Of a stretch of 64,000 bases of DNA, positions 1,702 through 54,860 are shown piece after piece (positions within the stretch are counted from its first letter, which is position 1; the number at the start of each line of letters is the position of its first letter). The position numbers were made by a program, and so were the translations under genes. A model generated the notes under the pieces. That model did no database searches. It was not told where the DNA came from and was given only the letters and a program-made list of their open reading frames with translations. The stretch is from Mesotaenium endlicherianum (taxonomy: Eukaryota), in contig WELA01001462.1 in assembly GCA_009602735.1 (NCBI GenBank), forward strand, positions 384,921-448,920. The letters are read 5' to 3'.

Positions 1702-2412
1702 CCACACCCCTCCCGTACTCTCCCTAATCTCTAGCAATCCCGTGGGCATACCCGGCGGGATTGCCTATAGTACGTGACGGCCCAGTCACCCATGCCTAGG
1801 GATCCTACTTGGTACCAGCGCTGACCCAACAAGCTGGCAAACTTATGGGTCAACCTTCACACGTGTGGGCGGCACACCACGCGTGATGGAAAAGGGAGTG
1901 CGCGGGATTTGGGCAGAGCCTCACAGCTGCTCAATAGCAGAACCTCGTGAGCGGATCAAAGGTCCAAGTATTCACCCTAGTCGTGAGTGGGCTAAGCCGT
2001 CCTCTCCTACCACCCTAACCCGACTAACCACTAGATCTTGCCATCACCCTCCACCCTCAGGTTCTATCCCTAGACCCCAGAAATATGCGACAGGCATGGG
2101 CATGACAGGATCCACGAAGATGAAGAACGGTTCCTACGATACCCGAACAAGAGGCGACTGCAATTTGACTCACAACAGGTGAAGCGCAGACTTCAGGAAA
2201 AGAGTAAGGGACCCAAAAGTAAGGCAACAAAGCCTAAGCTTTAGGAGGAACAGGCTGAGAAACCTGTTACTCCGCCACCTAGTAGTCAAGCTGAGAAGCC
2301 AGAGGGGAAGGAGGTGGGTGAGAAACCCCCACTTGGGCCTTAGGAATAGCAACTACTGGATGCCTTTGCTGGAGAGAAGCAGCCAATAACCAAGACGATT
2401 GCCATTGGAAAA

Positions 2413-5381: not shown

Positions 5382-5429
5382 ACAACTTTTAGCAGAAAAG
5401 GCAAGGACGCCTCAGCTGAGAGGGAGGGA

Positions 5430-6432
5430 TGTAAGGGAAATGGAAAGATAGGAAACTTTTTGCAAACTTGCTATGTCCTGAAAAGGAGTGAGAATTTTGA
5501 GTGCAAAGGGAAAAACACCTTGTGACAATCCCTCCCTGCATATGCTCAAGTGCAGGAAGATCCTAAATGGGTCAACCATGGGCAAGTCCACACCAAAACA
5601 CGTGCCAGGCGAATTTTCCACGTGCGGAGACGCACCAACCGTTTGACCAAGGAAAGTCCACACGTGAGGAGGACCACCGACACATCAACCAAGTCGACAG
5701 CAAACATGCTGGAAAGCCACACACGTGCCAAGGGTTTGACGTTGTTAGGCACAACAGCTGTCGCGACTGCTATCCGTTTGACGGTGTCGCACGCGCAGCA
5801 CAAGTTACAGAAGGAGCAAGAAAGAGATGAGAAGGGCGCGAAGGAGAAAGAAGTTCCCGAGCCCACAGGAGAGCCAAGAAGACACGCTCCAGCCGACGCA
5901 CAAAGATTCTTTCTCTCAGTATATCATAGATAGGTTAAACTTATGGGGTTCCCAAAGAGGGATCTTGCTGGTCAAAAGTAGAGAACTTGCAAACTAGAAT
6001 CTGCTAGGATTTCTAGCGCAAAATTGAATCAAACACCACAAGCGTGCGAAAGCACATAAAATGGTGAGTGCTGTGTTGGTTTCTAAGTTCTCGGAAGTCT
6101 CTATTGTCAAATTGCTGATAGTACGAGCAGAGTTTAGTAGTGAAGCTCTCAGCGAAGAACTGAGTGAGCCTAGCCGGCAGTGTGAATTGCTAAGGCGCGG
6201 TGTCCGGCGAAGAGCTTTAAGCAGGCCAGCATAGATGCTATAGTTTCAAAGTTTTGTAAGCTGTGACTTTGTGAAAGTTAAGCGAAAGCCCTGGAGGGCG
6301 ATTTTCTGTGAAGTTGGTATTGTGTGTGTTAATCTGCTTAAACTTGATTTTTGCAAACTACAAATTTGTTCACCTGGTTAAACCTCTAACTTGGGCGAAA
6401 ACATATTTGGAAGGAAGGCACTTCTGTTCTAG
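5430..6432 (+). mobile_element. 3' LTR of the PHD-Gypsy element (right end not resolved)
   Basis: PPT GAGAGGGAGGGA (5418-5429) is immediately followed by TGTAAGGG. No clear CTTACA end was found before 6433. Confidence 0.65.
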
Positions 6433-6777
6433 TGTAAGGGAAAAGGAAATATAGAAAACTTTTTGCAAAGTTGCTAAGTCCTGAAAAGGAGTGAGAAGAG
6501 ATTTTGAGTGCAAAGGGAGAAGCACCTTGTGACAATCCCTCCATGCATATGCTCAAGTGCAGGAAGACTAGAAATGGGTCAATCATAGGCAGGTCCACAC
6601 CAACACACGTGCCAAAGGCGACCGACCAGGGAAATTTCCCACGTGCGGAGACGCACCGACCGGTTGACCAAGGAAAGCCCACACGTGAGGAGGACCACCG
6701 ACACATCAACCATGTCGACAGTACACGTGCTAGAAAGCCACACACGTGCCAAGGGTTTGACGCTATTAGGCACAACA
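6433..6777 (+). repeat. Partial second copy of the same LTR (matches 5430-5756)
   Basis: Starts TGTAAGGGAAA and aligns colinearly with 5430-5756, ending at ggcacaaca. Confidence 0.85.
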
Positions 6778-7589: not shown

Positions 7590-8943
7590 TGACGTGACAG
7601 TGTATGACACGCTCTTTCTTGCGTATTTTTTAAGACAGTCCACGACCACCACGTGCACGATGTGAAGTACCAATCAGGCACAGGCCCGGACCAGGTTGGG
7701 CGCACGTTCAGCCGGGACCTGTTTTGCACCTCTGCGACGACAGCCCCGCCACGCTCGTTGCACAAGCCACAGCCCGCAACTAATCTCGCCTGCTACGCCC
7801 ACACACTGCCACTTGGCATTTCAACAGCTGCCAGCGCATCCCGCGAGCGCACGCTCGTGGCAGTGGAGGGTTGGCCAGTGATTGAGCACAACCGCGACGG
7901 GCCAAACCAAGGTCGCCGCACCGAGAAGGCACTGAGGCTGTCTCGCTCCTTCCGCGTGCTGGAGACGCCAACGGCGCCAGTCGCCTTTGTCTCGCACGCG
8001 CTTGTCTTGCCGATGAAGTCGGTGTAGCTCAGCGCCGAGGTCATCTCGCTGGCACTGCACCGCATGCCGACAGTTTCCTTTGCCAACCTAGGTGTCACAC
8101 TAGAGACGATAAGGCAGGGCGTCCAGCTGCTGCTTGTGCCTTGCGATGCTAGTCTGCGCAACGCCTCCGGCAAGCCAACGTCCAATGCCGCCACCATAGT
8201 GCTCTCTGCACCTGCGCGGCCTGCGCATAAGTGCAGGTTGATCTCCAGTCCCAACGTTGCTTTTCTAGATAATGCGCAGGGCGTCGTCCTTGTCAACACG
8301 CAACCTTTGCAGCGCATCATGTTAAACACTGGCGCGCAGCCACTCCTCGTCAACCTCCCCTACTTTCGTCAGCTGGGTCTCTCTTTGGCCGACCTGGAGG
8401 ATGCGCCCACGCGGATCAACACCGCAGCTGGCGCCTCTGAGTGCTTGAATGGGTGCACGCGACTGGCGCTCCGCATCACCTTCCGACCACGAACAGCAAA
8501 CGAGACAACCTTTCATTGGCACGCTCACGCTGGACGGAGCGTGTTCACTATCGGTTAAAGTGGCGCACGGGGGGCGGTCGCATTACCTCTTTGCTGCTCA
8601 ATATCGTGGACCGGCGCCCACCAGCGGCCGCCCTCTATGGCTTCATTGCGATGGGCGACAATCCTAGGGTGGTGAAGAGCACCAAGGGCGTGTCAGAGGA
8701 TGACAATGTCTCCATTGGTGCCGGCCTACTCAAGCACCAGGACGAAGAGCCACGGCTGTCCAGTGCAGAGTTCCATCTCACGCCAGCTGAGCACGCTGCC
8801 ATCATACACAAGCAGCATGTAGAGTCCGTACGCCTTCGCGCAGCCAACGCAGCCATGGCACACAGCTTGCTGTAGCCACACATGCCACTTCTGCCACAGC
8901 CACTGCCGCTGCCACTATCACAGACGTAGCCCGCACACCCGCA
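7590..8943 (+). pseudogene. DNMT-Gypsy segment A: gag C-terminal region and retropepsin-like protease (left boundary approximate)
   Basis: RIMLNTGAQPLLV (degenerate DTG) ..LGL..INTAAG. GC-rich sequence resumes at 16421 after the nested element. Confidence 0.65.
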
Positions 8944-9919
8944 TGTAACGATTCGAGCTTTTTAGGCATGTTTAGGATATTTCCCTAATTTCCTAAAATA
9001 CGTTATATTTTTGAATCGATGAAAGGTTGCATTTTGACAAATTTCTCGCCACACACGTGTGCCGACTAATTTCGATCGATTGGCAAAACGACCTGCAAAT
9101 TTATTGATAACATATCTTTGATACTTTGCAAAAGAAAAGTGTAAATAGTCATAAAGTTACTTTGATTGATTACAAACGATTAATTTAATCAATTAAGCAA
9201 TTAATTAACTTATTATGACTTTCATTATTTTGGATAATGACTGTCACAATGACTTAACGACGATCGTTAAATCGAAAGAAACCCGAACCGGTGACCCAAG
9301 GGAGTTACCGGCCGGCATCAAACCTGCGGCCTCCCGATCGCGTCAGCGCGATTCCACGACTGTCATAATTCAAACGAAAACAAATTTACAAAGTTACTTT
9401 GTACCCGGAGGGATTCAAACGCTCGTCTCTCGTTTGAAACGTTCACACTTGACCAATAGGACAAAGAGTTTTCTTAAACTCTCGGTTCATGTCACACGTA
9501 CGCGTACGCGACCAAAACCGAAAAGTCGCAACTTTTTCGGAAAGTTGCGTGAACACGATAACGCCCTTTTGGTGCAAAACGGTTTTTCAGAAACCGTCGA
9601 AAAGTCTCCAAACGGCCAAACGGCGCGTTACAATCATTCAGCCGAACGGGTTATACCCCTTTGCTTGTTTTCGTTGAACATGAACCAGTGCCCTAGCAGG
9701 TGACTCGAAGCACTCCAGTGCCTCATGTTGTGCAAGTACATATACTTGCAAGAGTCATTGTGAGTGCAATTCTCACACCATGCATTCTACGACTTTACGT
9801 TCTTTTTCTCATAGTCTGAAGTATTAGTAATACGCGAAGTTATCGTTGATTCTTCCAGTAAGTAATTTATTTTTCTTGAATACCGAGCAAAGATCCTTGA
9901 GAAAAGCAAAAACGTTACA
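8944..9919 (+). repeat. 5' LTR
   Basis: TGTAACG...CGTTACA, colinear with 15433-16415 (the duplicated ORFs 9215-9703 and 15990-16202 reflect this). Confidence 0.95.
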
Positions 9920-9920
9920 T

Positions 9921-9932
9921 TGGTATCGGAGC
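9921..9932 (+). promoter_or_regulatory. Primer-binding site (initiator tRNA-Met type)
   Basis: TGGTATCGGAGC, one base after the LTR end. Confidence 0.9.
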
Positions 9933-10500
9933 CAATCTCGGTTTCTCCAAGTTTTGTTTTTTAGTGGTTGGATAATATATTTTAGGGGCAATCCATCCCA
10001 GCATTGCCCTGCGCTACGGCCGCTTATCATAGTTCTGGGACAAATTGCCGACCAATCACCCATCCCAATTTTTCCCAACGACCCGGCCGCTTAATCATTG
10101 CTTTCGGGAGATAGATTCTTCTTTTGATCTCGGCCGTATCTAACAATTTTTCAAGTTCCCTACAGATTCTCGTTGATCTGGCCCAATGGCGCGCGGCCGA
10201 CGGATCAAGATCATTGTCTTGGACAACGATTCACCTTGCCCCCTCCGCTCATCGCCACGTGTCAATCCTGCGCCGCGTCACTCGCCTCTTACTCCTCGCG
10301 GCCCGCGTCACGTGCCGAAAGTCGATTTACACTCATATGAGGTTTTATCGCCGGAACTACCTCCGTCAACCACACCCGATCCGCCTCGTCGCGCCGCCCC
10401 ACCTCGGCCTCGAACACCCACTCCACCACCTCGCGAGCCCTCTCCTTCGCCCCTCCTCTCACGTGTGCGGCCAGAGTTGATTGATTCATTGCCTTTGATC

Positions 10501-10739
10501 CATGGGGTGGAAACTGGCGCTAATTTTTCAGATTTTTGAAATCAGGCCCCTAAAATTTTGAATCTTGTCACTGATTTTCCCAGGTTTGATTTCAGGTCGC
10601 TAATAAGACATATTTATTTGATTAAAGGGCGCTAAATCACTGTTGAAATTTTGAGATTTTGATTTCAGGGCGCTATTTATATCTTTGAATTCTGGGCGCT
10701 ATTTCACCCAGATTTTCGAGGGGAGTTCCCACCCCCATG
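10501..10739. mobile_element. hAT-type MITE (239 bp) inserted in the gag region
   Basis: TIR CATGGGGTGGAAACT / AGTTCCCACCCCCATG. Perfect 8-bp TSD CTTTGATC at 10493-10500 and 10740-10747. Internal GGCGCTA motif repeated. Confidence 0.9.
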
Positions 10740-11534
10740 CTTTGATCCTAACGGTCGTTATTATGTTTGTGGAATGATGAGGGCCATTGGTTGGAGTTGA
10801 TCTTTCAACCCACTCTTGCCGACAACCAACGGGTCTATAGCCCGCAATTTCGTAGTTGCTCGGGCTTTGTTTGCCCGCCCGCGCCTGAGTGCCGTAATAG
10901 TATCTTTCGCCGTGGTTACGTTGATCACCTGTTTGCCGAGCAGCGTATCACAATCGGTGAGGATTTGTACGATATGGATTTAACTCGTGATCGATCTACC
11001 GATGTGTATTGCAGTCATTGCGTTGATGGGCTTCGCGACTATCGTCGCTGCCCTTACTTACATACTTAGTTTAACACGCTCCTTAGCGAGCAAGAAATTT
11101 AGGTGCTAGTGCACATGCACCACATAAAAAAAATTTATTTTTCCCTAAGACATACCTTCTCATACATCAATTCAGCATATATTGATATGCAAGTGTTGAG
11201 ATTTGTCGAGTTTGCGAAACTCGAGTGCATACATGCTGGCGTGTTTCTGCACTTTCATTTGAATGACCCTAATCTTGCACAGTATTACAAACACTCGTCA
11301 TTTTTAGGTCGAACAAACAAGTGTCTTGCTCCAATTTACATTGCTGCATTCACTAAGGGACCCCCTGGCCTTGAGCGTATCACTCAATTTTCCAAGGGTT
11401 TAACGATGCAAAATGGACGTTTGCCTACGAGGCTTTACGTTTCAGTCATTCCTCTCAAGGCGAGGACTTTGCTCGTTTTGCACAACGACACTTTGTTTTG
11501 AGCTTGACATTTGAGAGTCACATCTCCGGACGTT

Positions 11535-14500
11535 CTGCTCTTACTGTCGATCATCGACACAGGTGCAATGACAAGCTTTCTAAGTGCTCATTTTGCGCAA
11601 GAGTTAAAGCTGGTTCCAGTCAAATCAGTTGACTAACTTCGTCTTGGCGCTGGTTCTTTAGCTGACATACTTCAAATTATTCGGTAACCTCTTAAACTGC
11701 AGTCTTACCGCAAAAACAAAAAGTTCTATGTAAGGAACCTCCCCGCAGGTATCGATGCAATTTTGGGTGACACTTGGCTTAAGGGGACACAAGAATTGTT
11801 AGACTACGGTCTGAGTACGCGCGTTGTTCACCACAAAGATAGGAAGATCTCTCTTCACTCTCTTAAGAAGCCAAGGGATATAACAGTCTTGAGAACTTTG
11901 AAGACTGAAGTGGAGAAAGGTTCCATGTGAACAGCAATTGGACATGGGTTAGTCGATCTTAAGAGATGGGGCACTCCTGTATCAAGGGCGCAATGCGCGC
12001 CGCCCATCAAAAGGGAATCGGGTTAACATTCCCAAACCGAGACATGGCAAACTCTTCTATCACCCACCAAGCAAGTTCGACGATGGGTTAAGCACGGTTA
12101 ACAGGTTTTTTGTGGAGTCCTGCGCCAAGCTCTCACAGAGACTTCTTCTTTGCTCTTTACAGAAGAGCCGCAGTTGGACATCCCTGTTCATGTTTTGACA
12201 CTAACAGCTAAACTGTCTGCTCTTCTGCAGAAGTACAAGTCAGTATTTTCACCCAACATACCTGCAGGTCTCCCATCTGACAGAGGTATTGAGCATGTAA
12301 TTCCTCTTCTTTCGGACGTCCAACCAACTTGGTGGCCAATTTCCGCCTCAGTCCGATGGAGCTGGAAGAGACGAAGACTCTGATCGCCGACATGCTATTG
12401 AAAGGATGGATCAAGCCGAGCTCTTCTCCATTCGGGGCCCCCATCCTCTTTGTCCAGAAGAAAGATGGCAGCCTACGTATGTATATTGATTATCGAGCGT
12501 TGAACAACATAACGGTCAAGAACCGCTATTTGTTACCTCGCATCGATGATTTGTTTGATTTGTTGCAAGGAGCATAGGTGTTCTCCTTGCTTGATCTAGC
12601 TCAAGGCTATCATCAGATTTGAATCTCACCAGAGGACGTTCCCAAGACAGCGTTTCGGACGCCTATTGGTCACTTCCGATACAAAGTCCTAAGTTTTGGA
12701 CTTACCAATGCACCAGCGACATTCCAAAGCACAATGAACAATCTGTTTAGACCTTACTTGGGTAACTTTGTCCAAGTGTACCTCAACAATATCCTGGTCT
12801 ATTCAAAGACGGAGGCCGAGCATTACAAGCATCTGGAGTTGGTGTTGCAGATCCTTCGTGAGCAACAGTTTTATGCCAAGCTCAAAAAAAGTTCCTTCCT
12901 CAAGGATGAACTTTTGTACCTCGGTCATGTCGTTAGCTCGAAAGGGCTACAACCAGATCCGGCCAAAATTGCATGCATTGCGGACTAGCCGGTCCTGAAA
13001 GACGTACATACTGTCCATTCATTCCTGAGGTTTGCTAACTACTTTTGCAAGTTTATGCAAGGCTATCCAGTGATGGCCGCGCCACTCACTGCTCTGACGA
13101 GGAAGAATGTTTCCTTCATTTGGAATGAGAACACGCAATTTGCGTTCGAGCGCATTTCGTGTACCCTCACTCATGCGCCGGTTCTAACATTGACCAATCC
13201 AAACTAGCCTTACGAGGTAGTGGCGGATGCGTTTGGTGTTGGAATAGGGGCTGTGCTGCTGCAGGCAGGCCAACCTATCGATTTTGAGATTCAAAAGCTG
13301 ACACCTGCCGAACAAAACCACTCAACGACAGAGCAGGAGCTCTAGGCAATTATGTACGATTTAAAAATCTGGCGTTATTATTTGGAAGGCTGCAAGGCTC
13401 TGAGAGTGGTTACGGACCACTGCCCGAATACCTTTTTCCAAGTCCAACCCACGTTATCAAGACGGCAAACAAGATGGTCGGAGTTCCTCGAGCAACTCCA
13501 CTTTACTTGGGCATACCGCCTTGGGCGTAACAATGTTGCGGTTTCGCTAAGTCGAATTCCCAAGAAGTTCTCTTGCTTCAGGGGCCCTTGGCACGGGAAG
13601 ACAAACAAAACGGTCAAGCTTCAAGGGTGGCCACCCTTGATTCTACTGTACCACTCTCAATCTTTGACGCACGTCAGCCTGGTGACGCGGGCGCACCCGT
13701 CTTGGGTAGCATAGCTAGTCTGATTCACTTGACCTGTATCAATTGATTACAGAAGGCTACACCAAGGGTTCGTTTTTCCTAGATCGCCTAGATACTGGCT
13801 TGAATGGTGTAGCCGTGGCGATGGGCAGTATGGATAAAAGGAAAGAACTCTCAAATTACAAATTCGAGAAGGGATTTTGGTGGCACAATGGGCGCATTGT
13901 GGTTCCAGAAGGACCAGTAAAACATGTGCTACTATGGAAAGCGCATGACTCACCTTACTCAGGTCATCATGGTATAAGCAAATAGAACCACCGGTTGCAT
14001 AGAGGGTACACATGGCCAACCCTCAAGGTTGATATTGCCGAGTACATCACCAACTGTGCGACTTGTCGGAGGAACAAGCCAAGCAATACGTTGCCCACAG
14101 AGAAGCTACATTTATTGGAACTTGCAGGTGCCCCTTGGGAAAGCATTAGCCTCGACTTTGTCGTGGACCTGCCTACCACCAAAAAGGCCCACAATGGGGT
14201 GTTGACGATCGTAGATCGCTTCACTAAGATGGTGCACTTCGTGGCCACTAAACCATCATGTGATGCCAAGGAGACAGCCGGTCTTTTTGTTGATTACGTG
14301 CTCAAGTTACATGGTATGCCAAAAAAATCATAAGCGATCGTGACAGTAGATATACGAGCCACTTCTGGCAAGAAGTTTGTTCGCATTTCGGCACGAAGCT
14401 TAAGATGCCCACCAACTTTTATCCTCAGATTGATGACCACACGAAACTTCTGAACCGCGTTCTTCAACAGTTTCACAGGCCTTACGTGAATCCTGCACAA

Positions 14501-15301
14501 GACAATTGGGATACCCTTTTCTCAATTGCAGAGCTCGCTATCAATAATGCTTATCAAGAAAGTGTTAAAGAAACCCCGTTTTTCCTCAACAGTGGGCGTC
14601 ACCCGCATACTCCGCTACACGACTTGGTCAACGATGCGGCAGGGGAGTTGTCCATGAGAGTTCCAAGCGCACATCTCTTTGTTAACTCTCTTCAAGAGGT
14701 GCACAGACAGGCAAAGTTGGCCTTAGCCGCTGCTCAAGACAGACAGAAGAGATTTTCTGACACACACAGGCAAGAGTTGTTTTGACTTTGGCAATAAGGA
14801 ACTTTTGCAAATAAAGAACTTGTAACTCAAGCACACAGGAGAGCGCAAGCTTCTGCCTCGCTGGGTAGGCCCTCTTCCATTATTGCACGGGTTGGTCCCG
14901 TTGCATGCCAATTGGATTTGCCTAAATCCATGGGGCCAACGCATCCTGTGTTCCATGTCAGTCTGCTGAAGCTGTTTAGGTATGACGGTCGTTATGAGCC
15001 ACAGCCACTAGAGTTGGAACTCGTTGATGATGATATAGCCTGGGACATAGAGAATGTCTTAGCACGTCAATATACCCGTCAGAAGCCTCCCTGAGTGGAG
15101 CTTTTGATCAAGTGGCTAGATTACGATTCTAGTTGGAATTTGTACGAACCGCATGACAAAATCCTACTTAATTGTAGTGATCTAGTTCAGCAGGACTGGT
15201 TACAATGGGCCGAAGCTCAACGGCTCTGTGGACAGACAAAGTTGCTGACTATTCCTAATCCTAAGCCAAGAGGTAAACGCAAAAGAGCCGCGGCCAAATA
15301 A
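11535..15301 (+). pseudogene. Degraded pol: protease, RT, RNase H, integrase and chromodomain
   Basis: [27 protein letters not shown] (degenerate YLDD); VVTDH; H..PYSGH..CATC; SLDFV; HPVFHVSLLK; WDIENVL..LIKWLDYDSSWNLYEP. Confidence 0.93.
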
Positions 15302-15432
15302 TCGATCTTTTTTGTCACTGCCACAACTGCAATCAAAAGTTTGCCAGAATTTGTGTTCACCTCACTACGGGCGAGTCTCAAATTTAAGAGCTACCTTAAC
15401 GTGGACATTAAGTCTTCGTAAGGGGGGAGGAG

Positions 15433-16415
15433 TGTAAGGATCCGAGTTTTCTAGGCATATTCCGGATTTAGGATATTTTCCTCATTTCCGAAAATACGTT
15501 ATACTTTTGAATCGATGGAAGATTGCATTTTGACAAATTTCTCTCCACTCACGTGTGCCGACTAATTCCGATCAATTGGCAAAACAACCAGCAAATTTAT
15601 CGATAATGTATCTTTGATACTTTGCAAAGGAATATTGTAATGAATCATAAACTTACGTTGATAGATTACAAACGATTAAGTTAATCAATTAAGGATTAAT
15701 TTACTTATTATCACTTCCATTATTTCAGATAATGACTGTCATAATGTTTCGACTTAACGAAGATCGTTAAATCGAAAGAAAACCCGAACCGGTGATCCAA
15801 GGGAGTTACCGGCCGAAATCAAACCCGCGGCCTCCCGGCCGCGTCAGCGCGATTCTACGACAGTCATAATTCAAAAGAAAGCGAATTTACAAAGTTACTT
15901 TGTACCCGGAGGGGTTCATACCCTCGTCACTCGTTTGAAACGTTCACACTTGACCAATAGGACAAAGAGTTTTCTGAAACTCTTGGTTTATGTCAGATGT
16001 ACACGTACGCGACCAACCGAACAGTCGCGACTTTATCGAAAAGTCGCGTGAACACGAAAACGCCCTTTTGGCGCGAAACGGTTTTTTGGAAATCGTCCAA
16101 AAGTCTCCAAATGGCCAAACGGCGCGTTACGAGCATTCAGCCGAACGAATTATACCCCCTTGCCTTTTTTTGTTGAACATGAACCAGTGCCCTAGCAGGT
16201 GACTATAAGCACTCCAGTGCCTCATGTTTTGCAAGTATATATACTTGCAAGAGTCATTGTGAGTGCAATTCTCACAGCACGCATTCTACGACTTTACGTT
16301 CTTTTTCTCATAGTCTAAAGTATTAATACGCAAAGTAGTCGTTGATTCTTCCACTAAGTAATAATTTGTTCTTGAATACCGAGCAAAGATCCTTGAGAAT
16401 AGCTGATACGTTACA
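15433..16415 (+). repeat. 3' LTR
   Basis: TGTAAGG...CGTTACA, directly after the PPT. Confidence 0.95.
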
Positions 16416-17699
16416 TAGCATCGCACACGCCTTCAAAATCCCTATCTCACAACGCCGTTGAGAGCATGCCGCGTACCACCACCTCTGAGCAAGAGACAAT
16501 GGAGTAGGCACATTGCAGTGGGGATACCAAGGAGGAGGAGGGGGAGGAGGAGGAGGAGGAGGAGGAGCCCTCTTACGGCACCACCACCCCTCAGACGCCT
16601 ACAAGATCGCAACCGAGGCCCAGGCCAGTGGGAGGGCTTGGAGTGAGCAACTACGCTTAGAAAGAGGCAGAGTTGAGTCACCAACGCAAGAACGAGGCCG
16701 GTCCCAGCCACCGATATCGTGACAAGGCTGATCCCAGTTGTTCGCAGCATGATGTCAGCCCGCCTCTGCCAACCCACGCTACCCACCCTCTCTACCAATC
16801 CCCGCCTGCGCGACGACCTATGACTTCTTGCAGCTCCATCTTGGACAACAATCCTTTTGGCTCTCGTCCATCCAAGGCGGCCCGTACAGCTGGAGACTGT
16901 TTACCCCTCCTTGGCGATTGCAGTAACGCGCCGACTGTTTGGGATTAACACCGTGCTAGCTGCCCACAAGTACGGCTCCCGTCGTCTCCACCATCCATGC
17001 GCACCAAATCCAAGTCTCCCACTCGCTTCGCTCCTCAGCAAGGGACTGCCTGGCCAGAGGCAGGCCTTCTTTGACCTATTCACCAGAACTCCAACAACTT
17101 TGTCGCCTTGCAGTTGGCGGCGTGTCGCAGCCCAGCGGGCAATATTTTGACGCAGTAAAAAGAGCTTTACGCCAAATCCGCCACCACATTGGCATTCTAC
17201 AGGCCAAGGCTTCCGTGTTCAGCCACCTGTCCGCAGCCTTGCTCGTTCACAAGCACCACTGTTGGGGAGGGTCTCGCATGCATTGCAGGCAGGCTCCATC
17301 CCATGGTAGTCAGAGTCGATCTCCGCACGTAGTTGATCCTTCACATGCCGCTTGTGCACAGCGCCCTTTGTCGGGAGACCCTGCCAGCACGCCGAGCGTG
17401 CTAGACCGACAACGTTTGCAGGGCGCAGCGCTTCGCTCAGCCAGTCGACGACCTCATTCTTCTTGAGGCCCGTGATCGCTGGCGCAGGTATCATGAAGCG
17501 ACCTAGACGATGCGGCCCCGACTATACTGTAATCTTATCCTCAGGGTCATTTGGGCTGAGGCCGTTGCTGCCATTGGTCGTCTGCGCCTTGCCCCTCATC
17601 AGCGTAGTGCTGCGTGCGATTGGCCGCCCACGCCAATCTCAAACAGAGGTGCCGCAGGCTCTCGCCCTCTACCTTCTCCCACGAAGCAGCTGGATGAGC

Positions 17700-19370
17700 G
17701 CCTCGGTGGCATCGTCCTTGTGGAGCTCTTTGGGGACATCGCCACAGGCCTTCTGCGTGATTGCAAGCGGGATTGCAGTGCGACGCTACGTCAACGTCAA
17801 TCCAGACGCGGTTGCCCAGCAGGTGGCACGCAGGCAAATGGCCCTATGTCACGAGCATTTGCCTTACCACTTCCCTCGCTGGCGTATTGTACTCAACGCA
17901 GACCAATTGGCCCATGGACATCCAGGCGATCAAGAGCGAGCACGTCACTTGCTTGGGCCCGACTTAGTCATTGCCGACCGATAGTGCCAGAGCTTCTCCA
18001 TTGCAAGCAGCGGAGGCGCCCTCGTCGACCCTCGCACGGCGCTCTTCTGGCAGCTCATACGCATCCTCAACCTCATTGAGAAGCGTCAGCCGCCTCACAC
18101 GTTGGCCTGGATCTTGGAGAACGTGGCCGTCCGCAACGATAGGCGCACAGACATGGCACAAAACTTCCACCTGTATAGCCGTTACGTAGGTCGCGAGGTT
18201 GTCATTGATGCGGCGCAGATTGGTTCCTTTGCCCGTTGCATCCGTGCCTACTTCGTCAACCTGGCGATGCTTGGCACCCTTGATGTAAGCTCATAGGATT
18301 GTAGAGTGCATTGTTTTGATCATTTTGATATAAAGTGCGTCGAATATCTTTAGGTGTTGAGAAAGTTATGGATTTCTGAAGTTTAATTAGTTTTAAGGTT
18401 GGTCGACGACTGTCCTTAATTCGCGGTGAGCGCGACCGTCGGATCAACCGACAGCGTCAAGCGATCTAGGCCGTTAGAGTGAACTTGTACCTTCACGTAA
18501 TTTCGGCTTGACGCGGAGTGCCCACCAGGTCGATTAACCTAGAAGTTTTGCATTAGCCTAGCGCGCTTAAGTTAGTATATTTTAGATATTTTGATGCATG
18601 CATGTGGACGTCAAATCGGCCCGACACGTCCGGATGAGGCTGACCTGGCCTACTCACGAATATTCTGGAAGGGACGATTTGACAAACGCTTCAAAATTTT
18701 GTTGCTAAGCGGCCCTCCCTCCTAGGGGCGAGCGGTTGTCGTAGAAAACTATAAATAGGCATAACTTCTTCGTTTCTTATCAGTGTTCACTTTTGTAAAT
18801 TTTTACGGGTTTGTAATGACAAGGCCTTTCATCCTATTCCATTTGCGAGCACTTTCTTGCTACTCAAAATGTTCAATAGTTTTCCTAAGCATTCTTAGTG
18901 ATATGCCGCTGCACTCTAAAGTATGACTGCAACTAGTTTGGTTCCTCGTGAGTCACTACGCTTCCACTAGGGCACTCTGCCCCTTTCACTCAAGGCCTTG
19001 GCTGTCGCACATGTACGGCATGGCTTCACTGTCAACGCCATTTTAAGGACCGATGCCTAGCCAAGCGTGTCGCGTTCCACCCGCACCACATACAGGCCCA
19101 GTGCGGGGTGATCGGCGAGGTCTTGCTGGCCTTACCCACCTTTGTTAGCCGTTTTGAGAGCCAGGCATTTTATTGGCGCCGCACGCAATATGGTCATTGA
19201 CTTGGCCACTAGCATGTTTGACTGACCCCGCGCAGTGGAGATGGAGCGCGTAATGGGGTTTCCTACTCACCTCACTCAGGTGGATGGCCTCACCGAGGTC
19301 AACCGCGTCTGGCTATTAGGTCAGGCTGTCAACGCTAATACCCTTACGTGGATCCTTCAGCACATGCAGG
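17700..19370 (+). pseudogene. C5-cytosine DNA methyltransferase domain inside a Gypsy polyprotein, split by a solo LTR
   Basis: Motif I GIVLVELFGDIATG (17708-). Motif III PMDIQAI. Motif IV DLVIADR*CQSFS (Cys 17985-17987). Motif VI WILENV (ENV 18117-18125). Motif VIII DAAQIGSFARCIRAYFVNL. After the LTR, motif IX EMERVMGFPTHLT and motif X RVWLLGQAVN. Confidence 0.88.
18284..18988 (+). mobile_element. Solo LTR of the family found at 35.3-43.2 kb
   Basis: TGTAAG...CCCTTTCA is the reverse-complement homologue of LTRs 38565-39310 and 42456-43205. Flanked by CTTGA/CTCAA (decayed 5-bp TSD). No PBS or PPT. Confidence 0.92.
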
Positions 19371-19749
19371 CTCTTACCCCTCTCTACGCCAAGGCACGCC
19401 ACCCTGAGCTTCCGCGCACCTACGATGATAGGGACCACTGGCTTGGCCTAGTTGAGAATCTTCCTGCCCCTGGTCCAGCCAGGTTCCCCTCAGGGGTTCC
19501 TCATCCTCAACGTGCGGCCCCTCCACCTCCCAGCCCGTCCTCGCCTCGCACCTACGACTCCAGCTCTGACTCTGGTTTGCTAAGGGGGGGAGGAAGGAGG
19601 AGAGAGGAGCCACAGCAACCCAAATTGTACAAGTCTTTCTTTTCCTTACCCCGCTTCCGTCCTCAGGCAAGAGACTCAAGGCAACTGGCAGCAGCTGCTA
19701 AGGAGGAGCCACCAGTGGCAGGACGAGCGACAACAGCTGCAGGGCATGT

Positions 19750-19798
19750 GACGCCAGCAGCATAGCGGACGACGCCAGCAGCATAGCGGACGACGCCA
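19750..19798. repeat. 21-bp tandem duplication in the DNMT-RT linker
   Basis: GACGCCAGCAGCATAGCGGAC x2 plus a partial third copy. Confidence 0.85.
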
Positions 19799-19900
19799 AC
19801 AATAGGGCGAGAGGCGCCACCTGCAGGGCAAGAGCCTCCACCAGCTGCTCCTACATAGAAGCTCAGGAAGAGTCTCACAGAGACACAAGCCGCATAATGA

Positions 19901-21929
19901 ATGACGCTGTTGGATGCGAGACGCAGCATCAGCTTTGCCAGCGAAATGCATGACCTTGGGGTCTACAAGGGCGACCACATAAGGATCCCTCTCACGACGC
20001 AAGATTTTATTTCCAAGAAGAGGTACCGTTTCAGTAACTTCAAGAACGTCTTGATTGACACGCAAACCGGCAAGCTGGTGGACGCACGGCTCATGAAGAG
20101 GTCCTCTAGTTGCTACGCCGCCCCCACGGTCATGCCAGCCAAGAAGGATGCCTCATGCAATTAGTATGAGAAGAGGATGTATGGTTACTATCATGCTCTC
20201 AGCAAGGTCACCAAGCAAGACACGTACCCCATGCCCACTCGAAATGAATTTTTTGACGACATTGACAGCTGCACCTGGTTCTCAGTGCTGGATTTAAGGC
20301 AGGGCTTCAACCAGATTCCTATCACAGAGAAGGACCGGCACAAAACGAGATTCTAGGAACTCAGCATCTCTATAAGTGGAGGATGATGCCTTTTGGACTG
20401 AAGAACGCGCCAAGCACCTTCCAGCGCATCATTGATAAGGAGTCGGTTGGGTTTCTCTTCGCCCAATGTTACATTGACGACATCCTCATCTTTAGCAAGA
20501 AGTTTGAGCAGCACGTGGAGCACATCACGGCAGTCCTGGAGCGCCTGGAGGCCGTTGGGCTCAAGTTTCATCCAGGCAAGTGCACCTTTGGGACCCGAGA
20601 GGTGGAGTACCTTGGGCATCTTCTCTCTTCTAGCGGGTTGGCGCCGTAGCTGGCCAAGATCTTGGCCATCAAGGGCATCTTGCCTCCTACGGACATCTTA
20701 AAGTGGAGGGCCTTCCTTGGAGTGGCCAACAACTACCGACGCTTTGTGCTTGGCTTAAGCTCACTAAGCCACTTAACGACTTGTTGCGGAAGAGTGTGGC
20801 CTACGTGTGGGGGCCAAAGCTGCCGGTGGCGTTTTACAAGATCAAGGAGCTGCTGGTGAGCTCCGCGGTGTTGCAACGGCCTGACTGCACCAAGCTTTTT
20901 ATCCTCTACATCAAATGGTTGCAGGCAGGGTTGGGAGCGATGTTGGTGCAGGAGCACAACGGCTTCGAGCATGTGGTGGCATACGCTAGCCGCAGCAACA
21001 ACCGCCCGAAGAGTAACTATGGCTCTTATGAGGGGGAGTGCCTGGCAACAGACTGAGCCATCGTGCACTTCCGGCACTACCTCTACGGCACTCGCTTCCG
21101 CCTGGTCACCAACCATTAGCCACTCAAGTGGCTCACGACGTCGCAGCGCCTGACAGGCAAGTACGTGCAATGGGCTCTCATTCTGCAAGAGTACACGTTT
21201 GACGTGCACCACCGCTCAGGGACGACCAACCTCAACGTTGACGGCCTCAGCCCTAACCCTCAGCCTTCTTTGAGGGACCTTTTAATAGCTTGTCACGACA
21301 AGGATGAGCCTGTGGTCTGGCACGCGACGGCAATCTTGGCATTCATTGTCAACGGCAACGTGCAACCCGCAAGGCTCACCAACCTCGACGTTGTGACAAT
21401 CACCATTTGACGCCTCGCCATGGCCACAGCAGAGGAGCAAGACGGCAGGCAGCGCGGGCCCAAGGATGTGTGAGACGATGTTGTTGTGCTGCAAAATGTC
21501 TCCACACAGAAGAAGGCGTCTGGTGTTGACACAGGGGAGCACAACCGCATCCTCAAGCGCAACCCTCACTTCGTCTTCTTGGATGGTCGTATACGACGAG
21601 TGATGGCGGACGGCTCCGTCCTGGTGCTTCGTGAGCTTGCTATACCAAGCCAGCTGGTGCGTAGTGTGCACAAGGCACTAGGACACTTTGGTGTCAAACG
21701 CACTCTTAGCCTTCTTCAGTTTGAGTACAGGTGGTACGGCATGACTAAGGTCGTCGCCAATATTGTCAGCAGCTGCACTCTCTGCGACTGTGTGTGCTCG
21801 AGCTTCACAGCGCGCAGCGCTGCTCTCAGGCCCCTTCCTATCCAAGAGTTGTTCTACAGGTGGTTTCTTGACTTGGTTGGAGAGCTGCCCAAGTCCTCCA
21901 GAGGCAACCTATGTCTTGGTGATGATTAA
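19901..21929 (+). pseudogene. DNMT-Gypsy RT, RNase H and integrase N-terminus (resumes at 24815-24834, then truncated)
   Basis: LDLRQGFNQ, MPFGLKNAPSTFQR, YIDD (20470), AYASRSNN..NYGSYEGECLA, VHKALGHFG..CTLC. YVLVMI|KHMSKWI is rejoined across the piggyBac TTAA. Confidence 0.92.
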
Positions 21930-24810
21930 CACTAGAACGCGCGGTGAACTATATTTGGAGCAATACACATATTTTGGTGCAGTTAGGAAGCCCTCTTGTT
22001 TAAGCTGCCCTTTCGTTTACACTCGATTATTTTTCTTAATTCTTAGCTCAAACGATTGCAAATACGCATGCATACTAGGATTAAATTGGCGACCCTAATC
22101 GACGAGTAGTCGCGAAGTTATGAGTGTAAACACAAAGTGCAAAAAGCTGTTGCACATAAAAAACGTGTGTTCGAACAGCACTGAAACTGTCAAATCCGAG
22201 CCATGAAGGGGTGCTCTTCTTTCTCGCGAAAATTTGCTGTAGATACAGCCATGGCGCTTGGTCAGAGCAGTGCCAAGCCTCTTTTGGGTCTTGTAATTTA
22301 TATTAGTACTGTTTTTTTTGGTCGTAGGTGGGCATTTGAGACTTTCGGTGATGGTTGTGGGGATATGTTCTTGATGGGAGAGGTGAGAAAGAGGGTGAAG
22401 GGGAAGAAGGGACAAGACCTCTTTCAAGTATTCTTTGCCTACGATGGGAAGAGGCCAAATATGACTGCAGAGGCCATTCAAAGCTTTATAAAATAAAGAG
22501 AGGATGAATTTGTGCAACTGTTTAGCCCGGGTGTGTGTAAGAGGAAACCTTTCATCGAACCCGAGAGTCAGCCAGAGTCAGCCTAACAGTCAACCAAGTG
22601 TGCAACAACGTTTAGAACTAGTGTTAGATGAGCTTGAGCCTGAGGAGTCTTGTGAGCCTAGTCTTGATGAGAGTGCACAACTTCCACTTGAAAGTGGTAA
22701 AAAGAAGAAAGGTTGGCCATTTGGGAGTAACAAGATACAAGCACCCGCTCCAAGAACCAAATTCAAGCAACAGCAGATTGAAGCAGATAGAAGAGAGAAA
22801 GGAAAGTCTAAGATGTTAGAATCTGACAGTAATAGGGATAGTGCTTCGGAGGCCAGCAGCAGTTCATCCGAAGAGGAGGAGGAGCAAGTGCCCCCCTTGA
22901 GCATGCAAGAAGAGGAGGAGCCTCCATCCACTGACTTACTCTTGTCCACCTTCAAGACTTGTTATAGTCCAGGTGAAGTCATGACAATTGATGAGAGAAC
23001 AATTCCCATTAGAATTAGACAATGCCCTATAAGGATATTCAATTCCTCTAAGCCTTACAAGTATGGTATGGAAGTGTTTACTACGTGTGATGCTATAACA
23101 TATTTTTGCTACGCTTTTATTATATATGATAGAGTGGAGAGAGATGGTCTGAAGTTTGATGTGGTTTTGGATCTAGTAGCTATGCTTCCTGTTGGTAGGT
23201 TCTTTAGTCTTTAGTCTTGTTGTAGACAGGGGCTTCACCTCTCCCAACCTCTTCCAAAAACTAGCTAAGCTTGGACATGGTGCTACTGGCACAGCTATGA
23301 CTAATGGAAAGAATCTTCCTGGCAAAGGTATTTGGATGGAGAAAGGTGCAAACCCAAAGGGAACCACCAAAGCTGTATACAATCAATGAAAGTCCCCCTA
23401 TGATAGCATGCACCTGGTAGAACAAAGCACCTTGTGCTTTTTTGTCGACAGCTATAGGACTAGCTCCTAGATCACAGTCAAGGCGTGATGGTTAGCTTAG
23501 ACATGAGCTGCCTGCTCCACAAGTGGTAAAGCACTACAACTTATACAAAGACGCAGTTGACCAGTTTGATGCTTTTTGTTTGAAGAGAAACTATAGTGCA
23601 GAAAGAGTACTTGTGAAAAGAAAGTGGTGGCATAGAGCTTATTGGGGTATTTGGGATGGGCTACTAGCAAATGTCTTCATCCTTTTGAAGTTAGTTGACG
23701 ACAAGGCTAACAGATGTGACACTTTCCTTGATATTACGGATGAGATGTGCTCATTTCAACATCCCAATGAAGCTGGACCTCCTAAGGTGACTACAAGACT
23801 GAGCACTACCCAACCTTCTGGTGAAGGAAGGCACACTCAAAGACACTTCCCTAGGGAGTATCCTGACAAGAAGAGAGATTATTTTGCCATGTGTGTTGCT
23901 GGTACTTACGGTCAGCGTGCAAATAGGAAGAGAGCTAGAAGGAGTCCATACTACTACTTTCATTGCAATGTTCCCCTTTGTGCAGCTCTTTGCTTTAAGA
24001 TATATCACGCTAATAGAGCTATAGAGCACTTAGATGTAGGTCCTAAGAGGGAGGTTAGAGCAAGCATTTAGTAGACTAATCGACGAGTTTTCGTCGTAAA
24101 ACTCCAACACTGCAATTAATTTCTAAAGTGTGGTATGAGATGTGAGATGTGTTGCATGTGAGTAAGATTGCATATTATGTGCCAGACATTTATTATGAGT
24201 TTTTTTGTTTGAATAAATCAATATATACATGTCATTTTGTGAATTCTAGGGATAAAAGAGAATATTCTAACCTATTAAATTCATTTCTTGATTAATCACG
24301 TAAAAGAAAACATCTGAAGGTACATATGACAATAACTAAGTAATGGCATGATTTTTAGATTCATATGACTCCTATGTAGCCCAAAATGATTGAATGAGTG
24401 ATCTTATGTTTTTGAGTTTTTGTTGCACCACAAAAAAACCGCCGTCGCATATTGCGGTTCAACTCCTAAACGATTCATATCTGGAAGGAAAATAATCCAA
24501 CATGTCTAAAATTTTGTGTAGTACCTAACAACATACATAGCAACCTTCCACATAATTTCCAAGCCCTGGTTTGGAAGGAAGTAGGAGCAATGGGTTCTTG
24601 AAAGTAAGCCAAGAATACGCGTTTTTGTTAATGATTTTTAAATGAGATTAATTGATTGAATCATTTGATACATGACCAGAACTTTCATGACCTAGGCTTT
24701 CCAAAACTATGTCCAGTGTCATTGTGAGATTAGTATCAAGGTGGGAAATAAATCATAAAGACATGCACTTGTTGCACCGAAAAGTGTGAGTTATCATGGG
24801 CTATCTAGTG
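21930..24810 (+). mobile_element. piggyBac-superfamily DNA transposon
   Basis: TTAA TSD at 21926-21929 and 24811-24814. TIR CACTAGA/TCTAGTG. Subterminal inverted motif ttt(c)ggtgca. The host integrase frame is restored on excision. Confidence 0.93.
22203..24071 (+). pseudogene. piggyBac transposase (frameshifted, apparently internally deleted)
   Basis: YSPGEVMTIDE..KPYKYG; VVDRGFTS; ATGT; YNLYKDAVDQFD; KWWHR; C-terminal Cys-rich C.VPLC...CF..YH. Confidence 0.92.
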
Positions 24811-26571
24811 TTAAGCACATGTCGAAGTGGATTGCATAAAAAGATACATAAAAGATACATCACCAAACAAGTACCATGTCAATATGCTTACATGTGCCAG
24901 TTCATCCAAATAAATGTATATTTTCATAATGCGTGTCTATTGACTTTGTCGAAAAGGTCCAGCGGGATGACTTATGCATCATAGTGTGATTCGCTAACTT
25001 CGTCAATTGAGGTCATGAGTATATGTTTGTACATAGATAAACTTGGCACAACCCCCTCCTAAAGTAGGAAACGTAGCACTTACCATATTTGTATAATTCA
25101 TGGCGAAGGCTCATGTTAATGGGAGGACACTAGGAATTGCAGAACACCCCTCTTCAAGTGATTGTTCAGTATATGTTACTGAAATAAGTTAAAAAACTCC
25201 GTAGCTAGAAAGTGGCTTTCTTTTCCTTGCGTTGGCGACCTTGCTGAACCTGCAATTTATAAGGATTTCTTTGGGATGGCCTTTCTTTAATAGGTCAGGT
25301 GCAACCATACGAAATATTCACAAGCAGAAGTTCTTGGTCGTAAGGCCACACTACAGACTAATGTGCAAGCAAGCAGACAAGAGGAATTCCCCACCATCAT
25401 AAACATGATCTGTACAACGGGTAAATTACCGTGCATGACTTGGTCGTAAGTAAACTACTAGTAGTGATGGCGGATAACTCCGATATGAAGAGGTACATGC
25501 AACTGCAACAATCATTGAGTACTGTGTGCATGTAAATCATTGCTCCAAGCCTTGCCTACAACTAAGACCGCCAAATTTACTAGCAATAAGTTACAAAGCT
25601 ATGACTAAGACTAGGTATGCATATCCAGGGATACATGCCACCCCTTTCACCATATGGGACTTGGGGCTCTGAGGCCTTTGCTCAAACTTGGTTTGATGAC
25701 CGACATCGTTGGTCATCCGATCAAGTCCCAAAGCCTGGTTCACTCTTGTGTGAGACTAAATACTCTAGTTGCTTCACACCCATTCACCTCCTACTTGTAA
25801 GGGTACTATATTGCGCCTCAAGGAAACATGTGGGGAGAAACTAGACTACATCCAAGTGCTTCACGCCAATCACTAACAAACTACACGCATGAGATACCCA
25901 CGAAAAACCATAAGGCGAAAAGAACACAATCACCCACTACGTCACTAGGCGCCTTCATTAGTCAGGATGTTCCGCAACACACTGTTCACAAACAACCAGC
26001 ACACAAAGTTTTTGCCGTGCGATAAGGACCTCAACACAGGGCTGTTGCACAAAAGCCACCAGAGCTGCAGCTTACGCGAGCAAGTTGCAGAAATCCCCAC
26101 ACCAAGGCTCCTCCCCTGGACCCAACGCAGGGGCCTTTAAAGGGCAGCAGCCCAGCTGGCACATGTGCCAGCTCCACACTATGCCACCAGGTTGTCCTAT
26201 ATTTGTGCACGCCAGCCACTATGGCAACAAGAGCTGCTCCAGGTGCATCGTACCTATGGCAGAATATTGCTACTCTTCAGTCTAACACAATCATCAACAA
26301 AAGAGGAGGAAGTGCTCCTGCCTTGCCAGTAAGAGAGCCGCTTCCAGTTTGTATGCATGACAAAAGTGCTACATCAAGTACATCAACTCACTCATAACCA
26401 AGACCTACTAGCCTTCTTGCTACGACAGGTATTGCCTCTGTAGAACTAGCACCCTGGCAAGTTGCAAAACAAGCGCCTTGTGCCACCTGGTTGAAGAGCA
26501 GAAAGAGAAAGACACCAATCCCCCACCCACTCTTCCTTTTCTTCGAAAGAAGGTGGGGGGGGGGGGGGAGG

Positions 26572-27220: not shown

Positions 27221-28082
27221 GGGGAGGAGGGGGCGGGGAGGGGAGACGGGCAGATACTGACGTCAGTCTTGCCGAAGGTGCACTGCTTGAGGGCAACAAT
27301 CTTGTTGGCCATGTAGTAGTCGCGCTTCCACCATTCGACTTTGTCCGTGTCCTCCAACTCCAGCGAGCATATGGGGGTGGAGACATCCGCAAGGCCTCTG
27401 TAATGATGGTGCCTCAGGTCATTGGCGAGGTGCAAATCTGCTCCGTCACCAGTCGTCGCCCATATGGTGTGGATCTTGAGCACGTACACCTGCATGAAGA
27501 GCACATGCTCATGGTGTCTCTCTTCAGTACCTTAAAAGGACCCTTCGCGGAGTCCAGGGATGGCTCTCTCTTGGCAGCCCACCCCATCCCTTAGTATGAC
27601 ACATGGCTCGCCTACAAGGCAGATAGGCCAGCACAAGAGACCCATATGGATTTGTTGGATACAGACGCACATCAGCACCGTGCAGCCAGAGAAACAAAGC
27701 GCCACGAGAACAACACCAGCATCTGGATGAGCAGAGAAGGAGGAGGCACCTGGCTGGGCTGGAACAGGTATTTGCGGTGGCCGTGCCACTCTAGGCAGTA
27801 ATTAGGGTCGGAAAACCCGGGGTTGGCGTAGCAGTACGGGTTGGGGTCCTTGAACACAAGCCTCTCTGCGCCCCAGTGGCCCTCCCAGCTCTTCTTGTTG
27901 CACCGCTGGTGGTCCCACCACACCACCCCGTGCGTGAGGAACGCCTTGTCCTTGTGCTGAGTGAGCGTGCTCTTGAGCGTGTGCGGGGGCACAAACTCAA
28001 TGAACTCGTCCAAGTCGTGCACAAATACCCACTTGGCCGTGAAGCGCGTGCGGTACAGGCAGTCGTTCAGCGCCGCACCCTG

Positions 28083-28138
<56 letters not shown>

Positions 28139-54590: not shown

Positions 54591-54654
<64 letters not shown>

Positions 54655-54805
54655 NNNNNNNNNNNNNNNNNNNNNNNNNNNNNNNNNNNNNNNNNNNNNN
54701 NNNNNNNNNNNNNNNNNNNNNNNNNNNNNNNNNNNNNNNNNNNNNNNNNNNNNNNNNNNNNNNNNNNNNNNNNNNNNNNNNNNNNNNNNNNNNNNNNNNN
54801 NNNNN

Positions 54806-54860
<55 letters not shown>

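What the first reader, a model, noticed from the sequence alone, without database searches (positions are those of the whole stretch)
7590..24834. Ty3/Gypsy retrotransposon carrying its own C5 DNA methyltransferase (protease-DNMT-RT-RNaseH-IN)
Seen: removing three younger insertions (8944-16415, 18284-18988, 21930-24810) joins segments 7590-8943, 16421-18283, 18994-21929 and 24815-24834 into one plus-strand polyprotein. C5-MTase motifs I, III, IV (xCQ), VI (ENV), VIII (RxY), IX (ERVMGFP) and X (RxxLLG) sit in order between protease and RT. The ORF track hides this because it is split across frames. Established: DNMT capture by retrotransposons has been reported in charophyte algae and dinoflagellates (de Mendoza et al. 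2018), so the concept is not new, but it is rare and this family may be undescribed. Motifs IX/X look DNMT3/DRM-like. Inference: the element may have methylated its own cDNA or insertion site. This copy is dead.
Basis: partly seen in the sequence, partly recalled or inferred. Interest (0 to 1): 0.88.

Follow-up and report, generated by a model that had tools for sequence, protein, structure and literature searches.

The report
Dead algal Gypsy element carrying DNMT3
This is a broken copy of a jumping gene in a green alga close to land plants; its polyprotein carries a DNMT3-type DNA methyltransferase that likely marked the element's own new DNA copies, a design already described in another alga.

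Summary
Around three younger insertions (Gypsy, solo LTR, piggyBac), the + strand carries protease, a C5 methyltransferase (Pfam PF00145 above cut-off), RT, RNase H and the start of integrase, collinear with an intact 2188-aa relative. The copy is dead: 9 stops, at least 6 frameshifts, no Gag, no ends. A host exon matches a Mesen1 (Mesotaenium) gene model at 100%. The methyltransferase family is DNMT3-like and unpermuted, not DRM. It is no one-off: 40 of 215 related proteins have this order, including Closterium and Mesostigma; 93, including the chlorophyte Monoraphidium, place the domain between RNase H and integrase. A relative has the A...B-A-B repeats reported for Klebsormidium KnitGypsy-Dnmt3 (2018), and so does the 3' end of a sister element in this window. 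Verdict: new member of a known kind. Methylation of the element's own cDNA is inferred, not shown. No Klebsormidium sequence was compared. The scan noted similar elements before on other DNA (peat moss; split-repeat Gypsy). Open and interesting: one old green-lineage clade that moved its DNMT3 within Pol.

The parts
7590..8943 (+). 5' remnant of the element: GC-rich (60%) coding-like DNA ending in an aspartic protease (about 8211-8590) whose active-site aspartate is lost in this copy; no Gag or terminal repeat found
   Evidence: Pfam E 0.01; protease profile of relatives iE 5.6e-11; tblastn P0005 and P0170 E about 1e-8 and 4e-8; GC step at 7590; related copies in DNA contigs over 7935-8486
8944..16415 (+). 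Younger Gypsy LTR element inserted (LTRs about 8944-9919 and 15433-16415, 88% alike); RT far from the DNMT-bearing group
   Evidence: flanking 5-mers match at 3 of 5
16421..17699 (+). Unassigned spacer between protease and methyltransferase, far longer than in relatives: long linker or a fourth insertion
   Evidence: no Pfam hit in three read-through frames, no tblastn hit, single-copy depth at 16964-17509 and one weak joint 16657-17687
17700..18283 (+). DNMT3-type methyltransferase, motifs I-VIII: motif I (VELFGD) frame-shifted from the rest; stop at 17982-17984 just before the catalytic Cys-Gln; ENV intact; motif VIII decayed
18284..18988 (-). Solo LTR of the Gypsy family found at 35298-43209, inserted into the methyltransferase
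   Evidence: 80-82% blastn match to that family's LTRs; flanks CTTGA/CTCAA; very high contig depth
18994..19366 (+). Rest of the methyltransferase: target-recognition region and motifs IX (EMERVMGFP) and X (RVWLLGQAVN)
   Evidence: profile positions 217-266 and 282-327; hhalign E 4e-11
19934..20750 (+). Reverse transcriptase (YIDD), broken by 2 stops and a frameshift
   Evidence: RVT_1 E 1.4e-5 and 6.7e-22
20760..21263 (+). RNase H, broken by 2 stops
   Evidence: RT_RNaseH_2 E 1.9e-16
21474..21929 (+). Integrase zinc finger and start of the core
   Evidence: Integrase_H2C2 E 8.2e-12
21930..24810 (+). piggyBac-type DNA transposon inserted at TTAA
   Evidence: inverted ends CACTAGA/TCTAGTG and TTAA duplication; DDE_Tnp_1_7 E 1.1e-6
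24815..24834 (+). Last 20 bases of integrase before the element breaks off
   Evidence: continues the xxLVMIxHxSKW motif of relatives; no further integrase downstream

Best explanation
This is a truncated, decayed copy of a Ty3/Gypsy retrotransposon with the order protease-DNMT3-RT-RNase H-integrase, likely of the same kind as Klebsormidium KnitGypsy-Dnmt3, whose methyltransferase would have methylated the element's own newly made cDNA. Shown: the domain order, the DNMT3 fold and class of the family, the three nested insertions, the lesions, and related DNMT-like sequence elsewhere in the genome. Inferred: the methyltransferase was made with Pol, packaged with RT in the particle, cut free by the protease, and put CG methylation on the cDNA before integration, so that new copies arrived pre-marked like host DNA. 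Identity of the element about 0.9; same clade as KnitGypsy-Dnmt3 about 0.75; cDNA as the main substrate about 0.5.
For: Collinearity with intact P0027. 40 of 215 DNMT-bearing relatives have this order, among them named Closterium (P0004, P0010, P0016, P0071, P0171, P0204) and Mesostigma (P0003, P0154) proteins. 32 of the 37 strong metagenome loci show it (the query was an alignment of this type and many loci are near-copies). Family profile ranks DNMT3A first (E 7e-30), DRM2 2e-11 over part only, M.HhaI 7e-11, DNMT2 5e-4. Model of relative P0014 (pLDDT 96) matches DNMT3A/B best (E 1e-20, TM 0.69/0.77). Catalytic Cys in 35 of 35 same-order and 92 of 92 other-order relatives aligned. DNMT and RT-RNase H distances correlate among 14 same-order polyproteins (rho 0.95; near-copies inflate this). 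Relative L026 has A1 1679-2017, B1 10238-10350, A2 10353-10691, B2 10693-10805, TG...CA ends and a 4-base flank duplication, the repeat layout that the Fig. 4c legend of PMC5890265 gives for KnitGypsy-Dnmt3. DNA contigs at 80% or more pile 5 to 46 times the unique depth on 17692-18237 and 36 times on 19148-19329.
Against: No Klebsormidium sequence was fetched and Fig. 4c is not held, so clade and domain order were not compared directly. This copy has lost its ends, so the split repeats could not be tested on it. KnitGypsy-Dnmt3 gave no methylation in yeast (PMC5890265; inconclusive per its authors). 25 of 35 same-order relatives have Glu, not the canonical Pro, before the catalytic Cys. No contig of another copy was seen to bridge methyltransferase and RT (79 of 94 joints were not shown). 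The sister element at 2386-6775 has an RT of the same group but no methyltransferase trace in the 690 bases before its RT. RNA runs X5 and X8 (6% and 13% read) had no read on the methyltransferase bins. The window's own branch has no strongly supported sister in either tree.
Confidence: 0.7

Rival explanations
1. Same element, other job: the domain acts after integration (marks the insertion site or the integrated copy, damping the element and sparing the host) or serves mainly as a DNA-binding module.
For: Several relatives and the sister element carry a chromatin-reading PHD finger after integrase; Glu for Pro in motif IV in 25 of 35; no activity for the Klebsormidium domain in yeast, and these options are listed in the discussion of PMC5890265 (section 11).
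Against: Cys, ENV and motif VIII arginines are 97-100% conserved in 129 full-length domains, which argues for catalysis; being part of Pol puts the enzyme with RT and the cDNA first (inference).
Confidence: 0.3
2. An independent DNMT3 capture, convergent with KnitGypsy-Dnmt3 and not the same clade.
For: DNMT3 was captured repeatedly by retroelements (PMC5890265); two different slots in Pol exist among the relatives; no Klebsormidium protein appeared among the named hits (20 proteins looked up plus source names).
Against: The odd A...B-A-B repeat layout is shared by relative L026 and by the sister element here; the same order occurs in Mesostigma and Closterium, which bracket Klebsormidium in the streptophyte tree (phylogeny recalled).
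Confidence: 0.15
3. A one-off mosaic: a stray methyltransferase gene, or a protease piece of another element, joined by chance in this nest of insertions.
For: The protease-DNMT spacer is about 1.1 kb or more too long and the first insertion's flanks match at only 3 of 5, so the protease link is the weakest joint.
Against: RT and DNMT of this copy both have P0169 as nearest relative (57% and 39%), and the protease matches same-order relatives. A run contig spans 18963-20152 without a difference, so the DNMT-RT link is no assembly slip (that run may be the source DNA).
Confidence: 0.05

Closest known systems
KnitGypsy-Dnmt3 of Klebsormidium nitens (de Mendoza et al. 2018, PMC5890265; read: abstract, sections 9, 11, 15, passages of others, passages of the peer-review file, one row of Supplementary Data 1; Fig. 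4c and the supplementary figures not available)
   Same: Unpermuted DNMT3-type domain inside the Pol ORF of a Gypsy element of a streptophyte alga; DIRS-like A...B-A-B repeats in relatives of this copy.
   Different: Other host class (Zygnematophyceae); this copy is dead and has no ends; domain order and tree position against the Klebsormidium element were not compared.
SymbioDIRS-Dnmt3 of Symbiodinium (same paper, passages)
   Same: DNMT3 in the ORF of RT; two domain orders coexist; shown there to methylate CG de novo in yeast.
   Different: DIRS element with tyrosine recombinase in dinoflagellates; here a DDE integrase and Gypsy RT.
EpiLTRs of Euglena and Cymbomonas (bioRxiv 10.64898/2026.05.21.726589; read: abstract, section 8, passages)
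   Same: LTR retrotransposon with a C5 methyltransferase and a chromatin reader.
   Different: EpiLTRs add an adenine methyltransferase and a chromodomain and their DNMT is sister to DNMT4; the preprint calls them distinct from streptophyte Gypsy-DNMT3.
Plant DRM methyltransferases
   Same: DNMT3-derived catalytic domain.
   Different: DRM motifs are circularly permuted; here they run I to X, and DRM2 matches only part of the profile.

Membership tests
Ty3/Gypsy LTR retrotransposon | Order protease, RT, RNase H, integrase on one strand | tested here: met
Ty3/Gypsy LTR retrotransposon | Gag and terminal repeats | tested here: inconclusive
   none found for this copy, which is truncated; present in relatives (zf-CCHC in P0027, P0166; repeats in L026)
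Gypsy-DNMT3 (KnitGypsy-Dnmt3 kind) | DNMT3-class, unpermuted methyltransferase | tested here: met
   motifs in I-X order in the window; family profile and model of a relative rank DNMT3A/B first; no tree with host DNMT3 was built
Gypsy-DNMT3 (KnitGypsy-Dnmt3 kind) | Methyltransferase within the Pol ORF | tested here: met
   collinear with single-ORF P0027; L033 has one 1795-codon frame with DNMT, RT, RNase H, integrase; L001 and L002 have a stop between DNMT and RT
Gypsy-DNMT3 (KnitGypsy-Dnmt3 kind) | DIRS-like A-coding-B-A-B repeats | tested here: inconclusive
   ends of this copy are lost; full layout in L026; B1-A2-B2 end in the sister element at 5430-6775; junction motif in L001, L011, L033
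Gypsy-DNMT3 (KnitGypsy-Dnmt3 kind) | Groups with the Klebsormidium sequences; same domain order as Fig. 4c | not tested
   no Klebsormidium sequence came up; figure not held
Gypsy-DNMT3 (KnitGypsy-Dnmt3 kind) | Catalytic residues kept under purifying selection | tested here: inconclusive
   kept in relatives, decayed in this copy; Ka/Ks not computed
Gypsy-DNMT3 (KnitGypsy-Dnmt3 kind) | Methyltransferase activity | not testable with these tools
   needs an assay
DRM | Circularly permuted motifs (VI-X before I-V) | tested here: not met
EpiLTR | DAM plus DNMT4-sister DNMT plus chromodomain | tested here: not met
   no DAM or chromodomain Pfam hit in the pieces scanned or in 46 relatives; DNMT3-like; the integrase end of this copy is missing

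The most novel reading that the evidence does not exclude
Gypsy-DNMT3 is not a Klebsormidium oddity but one ancient clade of the whole green lineage, with split terminal repeats and often a PHD finger, which captured DNMT3 once before chlorophytes and streptophytes parted and then moved the domain inside Pol: between protease and RT in streptophytes (Mesostigma, Closterium, Mesotaenium), between RNase H and integrase in chlorophytes (Monoraphidium). Each order is one side of a branch in both trees (99/92 and 100/100). Limits: no DNMT outgroup, only two non-DNMT Gypsy outgroups, one named chlorophyte, and horizontal transfer is not excluded.
Probability: 0.35. Interest if true: 0.65.

Novelty: new member of a known kind. 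Interest (0 to 1): 0.42.

Why it matters
A retrotransposon that carries the enzyme class its host uses to silence it is a clear case of counter-capture in the host-transposon conflict, and what the enzyme does is still open. This copy is dead and teaches little alone. Its value is as a pointer: the design reaches the algal sister group of land plants, intact natural polyproteins exist (P0027, P0166, P0170, L033) that could be assayed, and a second, apparently undescribed domain order with a PHD finger is common. A host with many public RNA runs makes the family easier to study than most.

Tried and rejected
No whole genome is held for this window, so no intact genomic copy could be sought. Word-indexed protein search with the read-through domain among longer proteins: 0 of 602 candidates. 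Viral contigs: 4 pattern matches, 0 confirmed. PDB with the window's piece alone: only weak bacterial hits, E 0.16 or worse. No ESM Atlas result was obtained, so taxon spread from that source is open. Run search: no RNA holder listed, no evidence either way. No tRNA gene in the window. No continuation of integrase after 24834 and no domain in 7590-8200 or 16421-17650. A faint likeness of 7597-7612 to the repeat junction of relatives needs two gaps and was not counted. IQ-TREE did not run (FastTree used); ML trees were redone on subsets: 33 of 76 rows (all same-order rows, 16 of 59 other-order) and 43 of 171 rows plus 3 loci (9 near-copies dropped, 15 of 92 other-order, 1 of 43 unassigned). Loci L038-L054 (31-51 bits, methyltransferase alone) were set aside unexamined. 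DRM and EpiLTR membership rejected. Literature searches that found no report for Mesotaenium, Closterium, Mesostigma or the RNase H-DNMT-integrase order; subscription papers, the 2018 supplementary figures and preprint supplements were not seen and may list such elements. Passages of PMC10952607, PMC13519894, PMC6317226, PMC9940879 and 10.1101/2021.11.30.470311 held nothing on Gypsy-borne DNMT3.

Full report
What is there. The + strand from 7590 to 24834 holds four GC-rich segments (55-60% GC for the three long ones) separated by three insertions. The first, 8944-16415, is a Gypsy element with 88%-identical LTRs; its flanking 5-mers match at 3 of 5. The second, 18284-18988, is a reversed solo LTR of the family at 35.3-43.2 kb; its flanks CTTGA/CTCAA differ as CpG decay of one site would make them (inference). 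The third, 21930-24810, is a piggyBac-type element with a TTAA duplication. Pfam finds a weak protease, PF00145 (E 1.9e-5, above cut-off), RT, RNase H and the integrase zinc finger in that order. The intact 2188-aa protein P0027 (unnamed source; zinc knuckle, protease, DNMT, RT, RNase H, integrase) aligns collinearly over all segments. A profile of related methyltransferases hits 4 of 2852 window peptides below E 1e-3, all here and in order.

State of the copy. Nine stops lie in the aligned frames and the frame changes at least six times. The motif I loop, motif VIII and the protease active site are altered, and a stop precedes the catalytic Cys. No Gag, terminal repeat or integrase core remainder was found. 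The protease-to-DNMT spacer is about 1.63 kb, against 65-182 aa in 29 relatives; nothing in it matched Pfam or the relatives, so a fourth insertion is possible. RNA runs X5 and X8 (6% and 13% of each read) had no depth on the methyltransferase bins; X11 and X6 (24% and 12%) laid 5 and 11 partial reads on the protease segment.

Host. A host exon at 27750-28079 (-) is 100% identical over 110 aa to EukProt jgi/Mesen1 ME000072S09401. Mesen1 as Mesotaenium endlicherianum, Zygnematophyceae, is recalled, not printed by the tool.

Family. The domain found 251 relatives at E 0.001 or better among 1.84 billion representatives (best 150 fetched); P0027's domain added 65 hits. Of 215 fetched proteins with the domain, 40 have it after protease or before RT (order A, as here), 93 between RNase H and integrase (order B, mostly with a PHD finger) and 82 are too short to tell. 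Named order-A proteins come from Closterium and Mesostigma; the one named order-B protein with an algal name is Monoraphidium MNEG_11595; another is labelled as a bacterial MAG (P0206), which I did not check. Order B is one side of a branch in the DNMT tree (99/92) and the RT-RNase H tree (100/100); the window lies on the A side in both, nearest P0169, without a strongly supported sister. These trees have no DNMT outgroup, and the RT root rests on two Gypsy elements of this window. In DNA contigs of the same organism (possibly the source DNA), depth at 80% identity rises 5- to 46-fold over the unique level on the methyltransferase and up to about 80-fold on the protease. That shows related copies; it is no copy number, and no other copy was seen bridging DNMT and RT.

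Class of enzyme. A profile of 48 relatives ranks human DNMT3A first (E 7e-30), DNMT3B/C next, DRM2 (2e-11, part only), M.HhaI (7e-11) and DNMT2 (5e-4) far behind. A model of order-A-group relative P0014 (pLDDT 96; group) matches DNMT3A/B best. The catalytic Cys is kept in 35 of 35 order-A and 92 of 92 order-B domains; the residue before it is Glu in 25 and Pro in 10 of the 35.

Ends. Of 54 metagenome loci, 37 score strongly and 32 of those show order A (biased by the query, many near-copies). L026 has A1-coding-B1-A2-B2 repeats with TG...CA ends, a 4-base flank duplication and a palindromic B1|A2 junction also seen in L001, L011 and L033. PMC5890265 (Fig. 1e and 4c legends) gives this layout for KnitGypsy-Dnmt3. 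In this window a second element of the same RT group (2386-5363; RT, RNase H, integrase, PHD) ends in a purine tract, B1 5430-5756, a one-mismatch junction, A2 and B2 6433-6775. Such a motif appears anywhere in 5 of 200 shuffles of that stretch; the real one sits at the repeat edge. No methyltransferase trace was found before its RT.

Mechanism. Shown: a DNMT3-fold domain with conserved catalytic residues rides in Pol across deep divergence. Inferred: it is packaged with RT, released by the protease and methylates CG on the new cDNA, as proposed for DIRS-borne DNMT3 in PMC5890265 (section 11), where that enzyme methylated CG in yeast and the Klebsormidium one did not (called inconclusive). Action on the insertion site or mere binding remains a live rival.

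Novelty. The design is published for Klebsormidium (PMC5890265). PMC12344493 (passages) and bioRxiv 10.64898/2026.05.21.726589 (section 8) already speak of streptophyte elements; PMC6338049 (passages) mentions methylase-bearing retrotransposons in green algae and charophytes in general terms. Nine searches found no report for Mesotaenium or for order B; unseen supplements may hold one. Earlier notes of this scan describe a peat-moss family and a split-repeat Gypsy on other DNA; I did not check them. Verdict: real, new member of a known kind, interest 0.42; the single-capture, moved-domain reading has probability about 0.35 and would merit 0.65.

Noticed in passing
window 2386-6775 (+): Second, A-rich Gypsy element of the same RT group (56% to P0169): RT, RNase H, integrase, PHD finger (Pfam E 6.7e-6), then purine tract and a B1-A2-B2 split-repeat end (5430-5756, 5757-6432, 6433-6775). 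No methyltransferase trace in 1765-2450: truncated copy or DNMT-less branch.
   Followed up: partly
L026:1679-10805; L001:8235; L011:14642; L033:134: A-coding-B-A-B repeats with TG...CA ends, 4-base flank duplication and a palindromic GACA-GC-TGTC junction that looks like a circle junction, in an element with a DDE integrase.
   Followed up: partly
P0018, P0030, P0194 and 90 more proteins: Large group with order RT-RNase H-DNMT3-integrase-PHD, one named from Monoraphidium; some add G-patch or Tudor-like domains. No paper found that describes this order.
   Followed up: partly
L001:2477-7804; L002:976-8226; P0005, P0163: Some order-A elements end one long frame after the methyltransferase and start RT in a next frame after a single stop, so the DNMT may be made with Gag-protease and apart from RT, or by read-through.
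   Followed up: no
window 16421-17699: Unassigned 1.3-kb stretch with an acidic run and a GAG microsatellite; the frame that leads into motif I has 8 stops in 446 codons.
   Followed up: partly
window 35250-43210 (-): Gypsy family with three LTR copies (tandem or nested), a 768-codon open RT-RNase H-integrase frame at 36276-38582, and RNA reads on its LTR sequence; source of the solo LTR at 18284.
   Followed up: partly
window 1355-1701 (-): Integrase fragment 79% like that of the Gypsy element at 8944-16415.
   Followed up: no
window 27672-31400 (-), 49400-55100 (-), 57659-59944 (+): Host genes with GC-rich exons and microsatellite-rich introns with assembly gaps: a PF01697 glycosyltransferase, a kinesin and a HEAT-repeat-like gene resembling EFR3 (likeness recalled, not tested).
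   Followed up: partly
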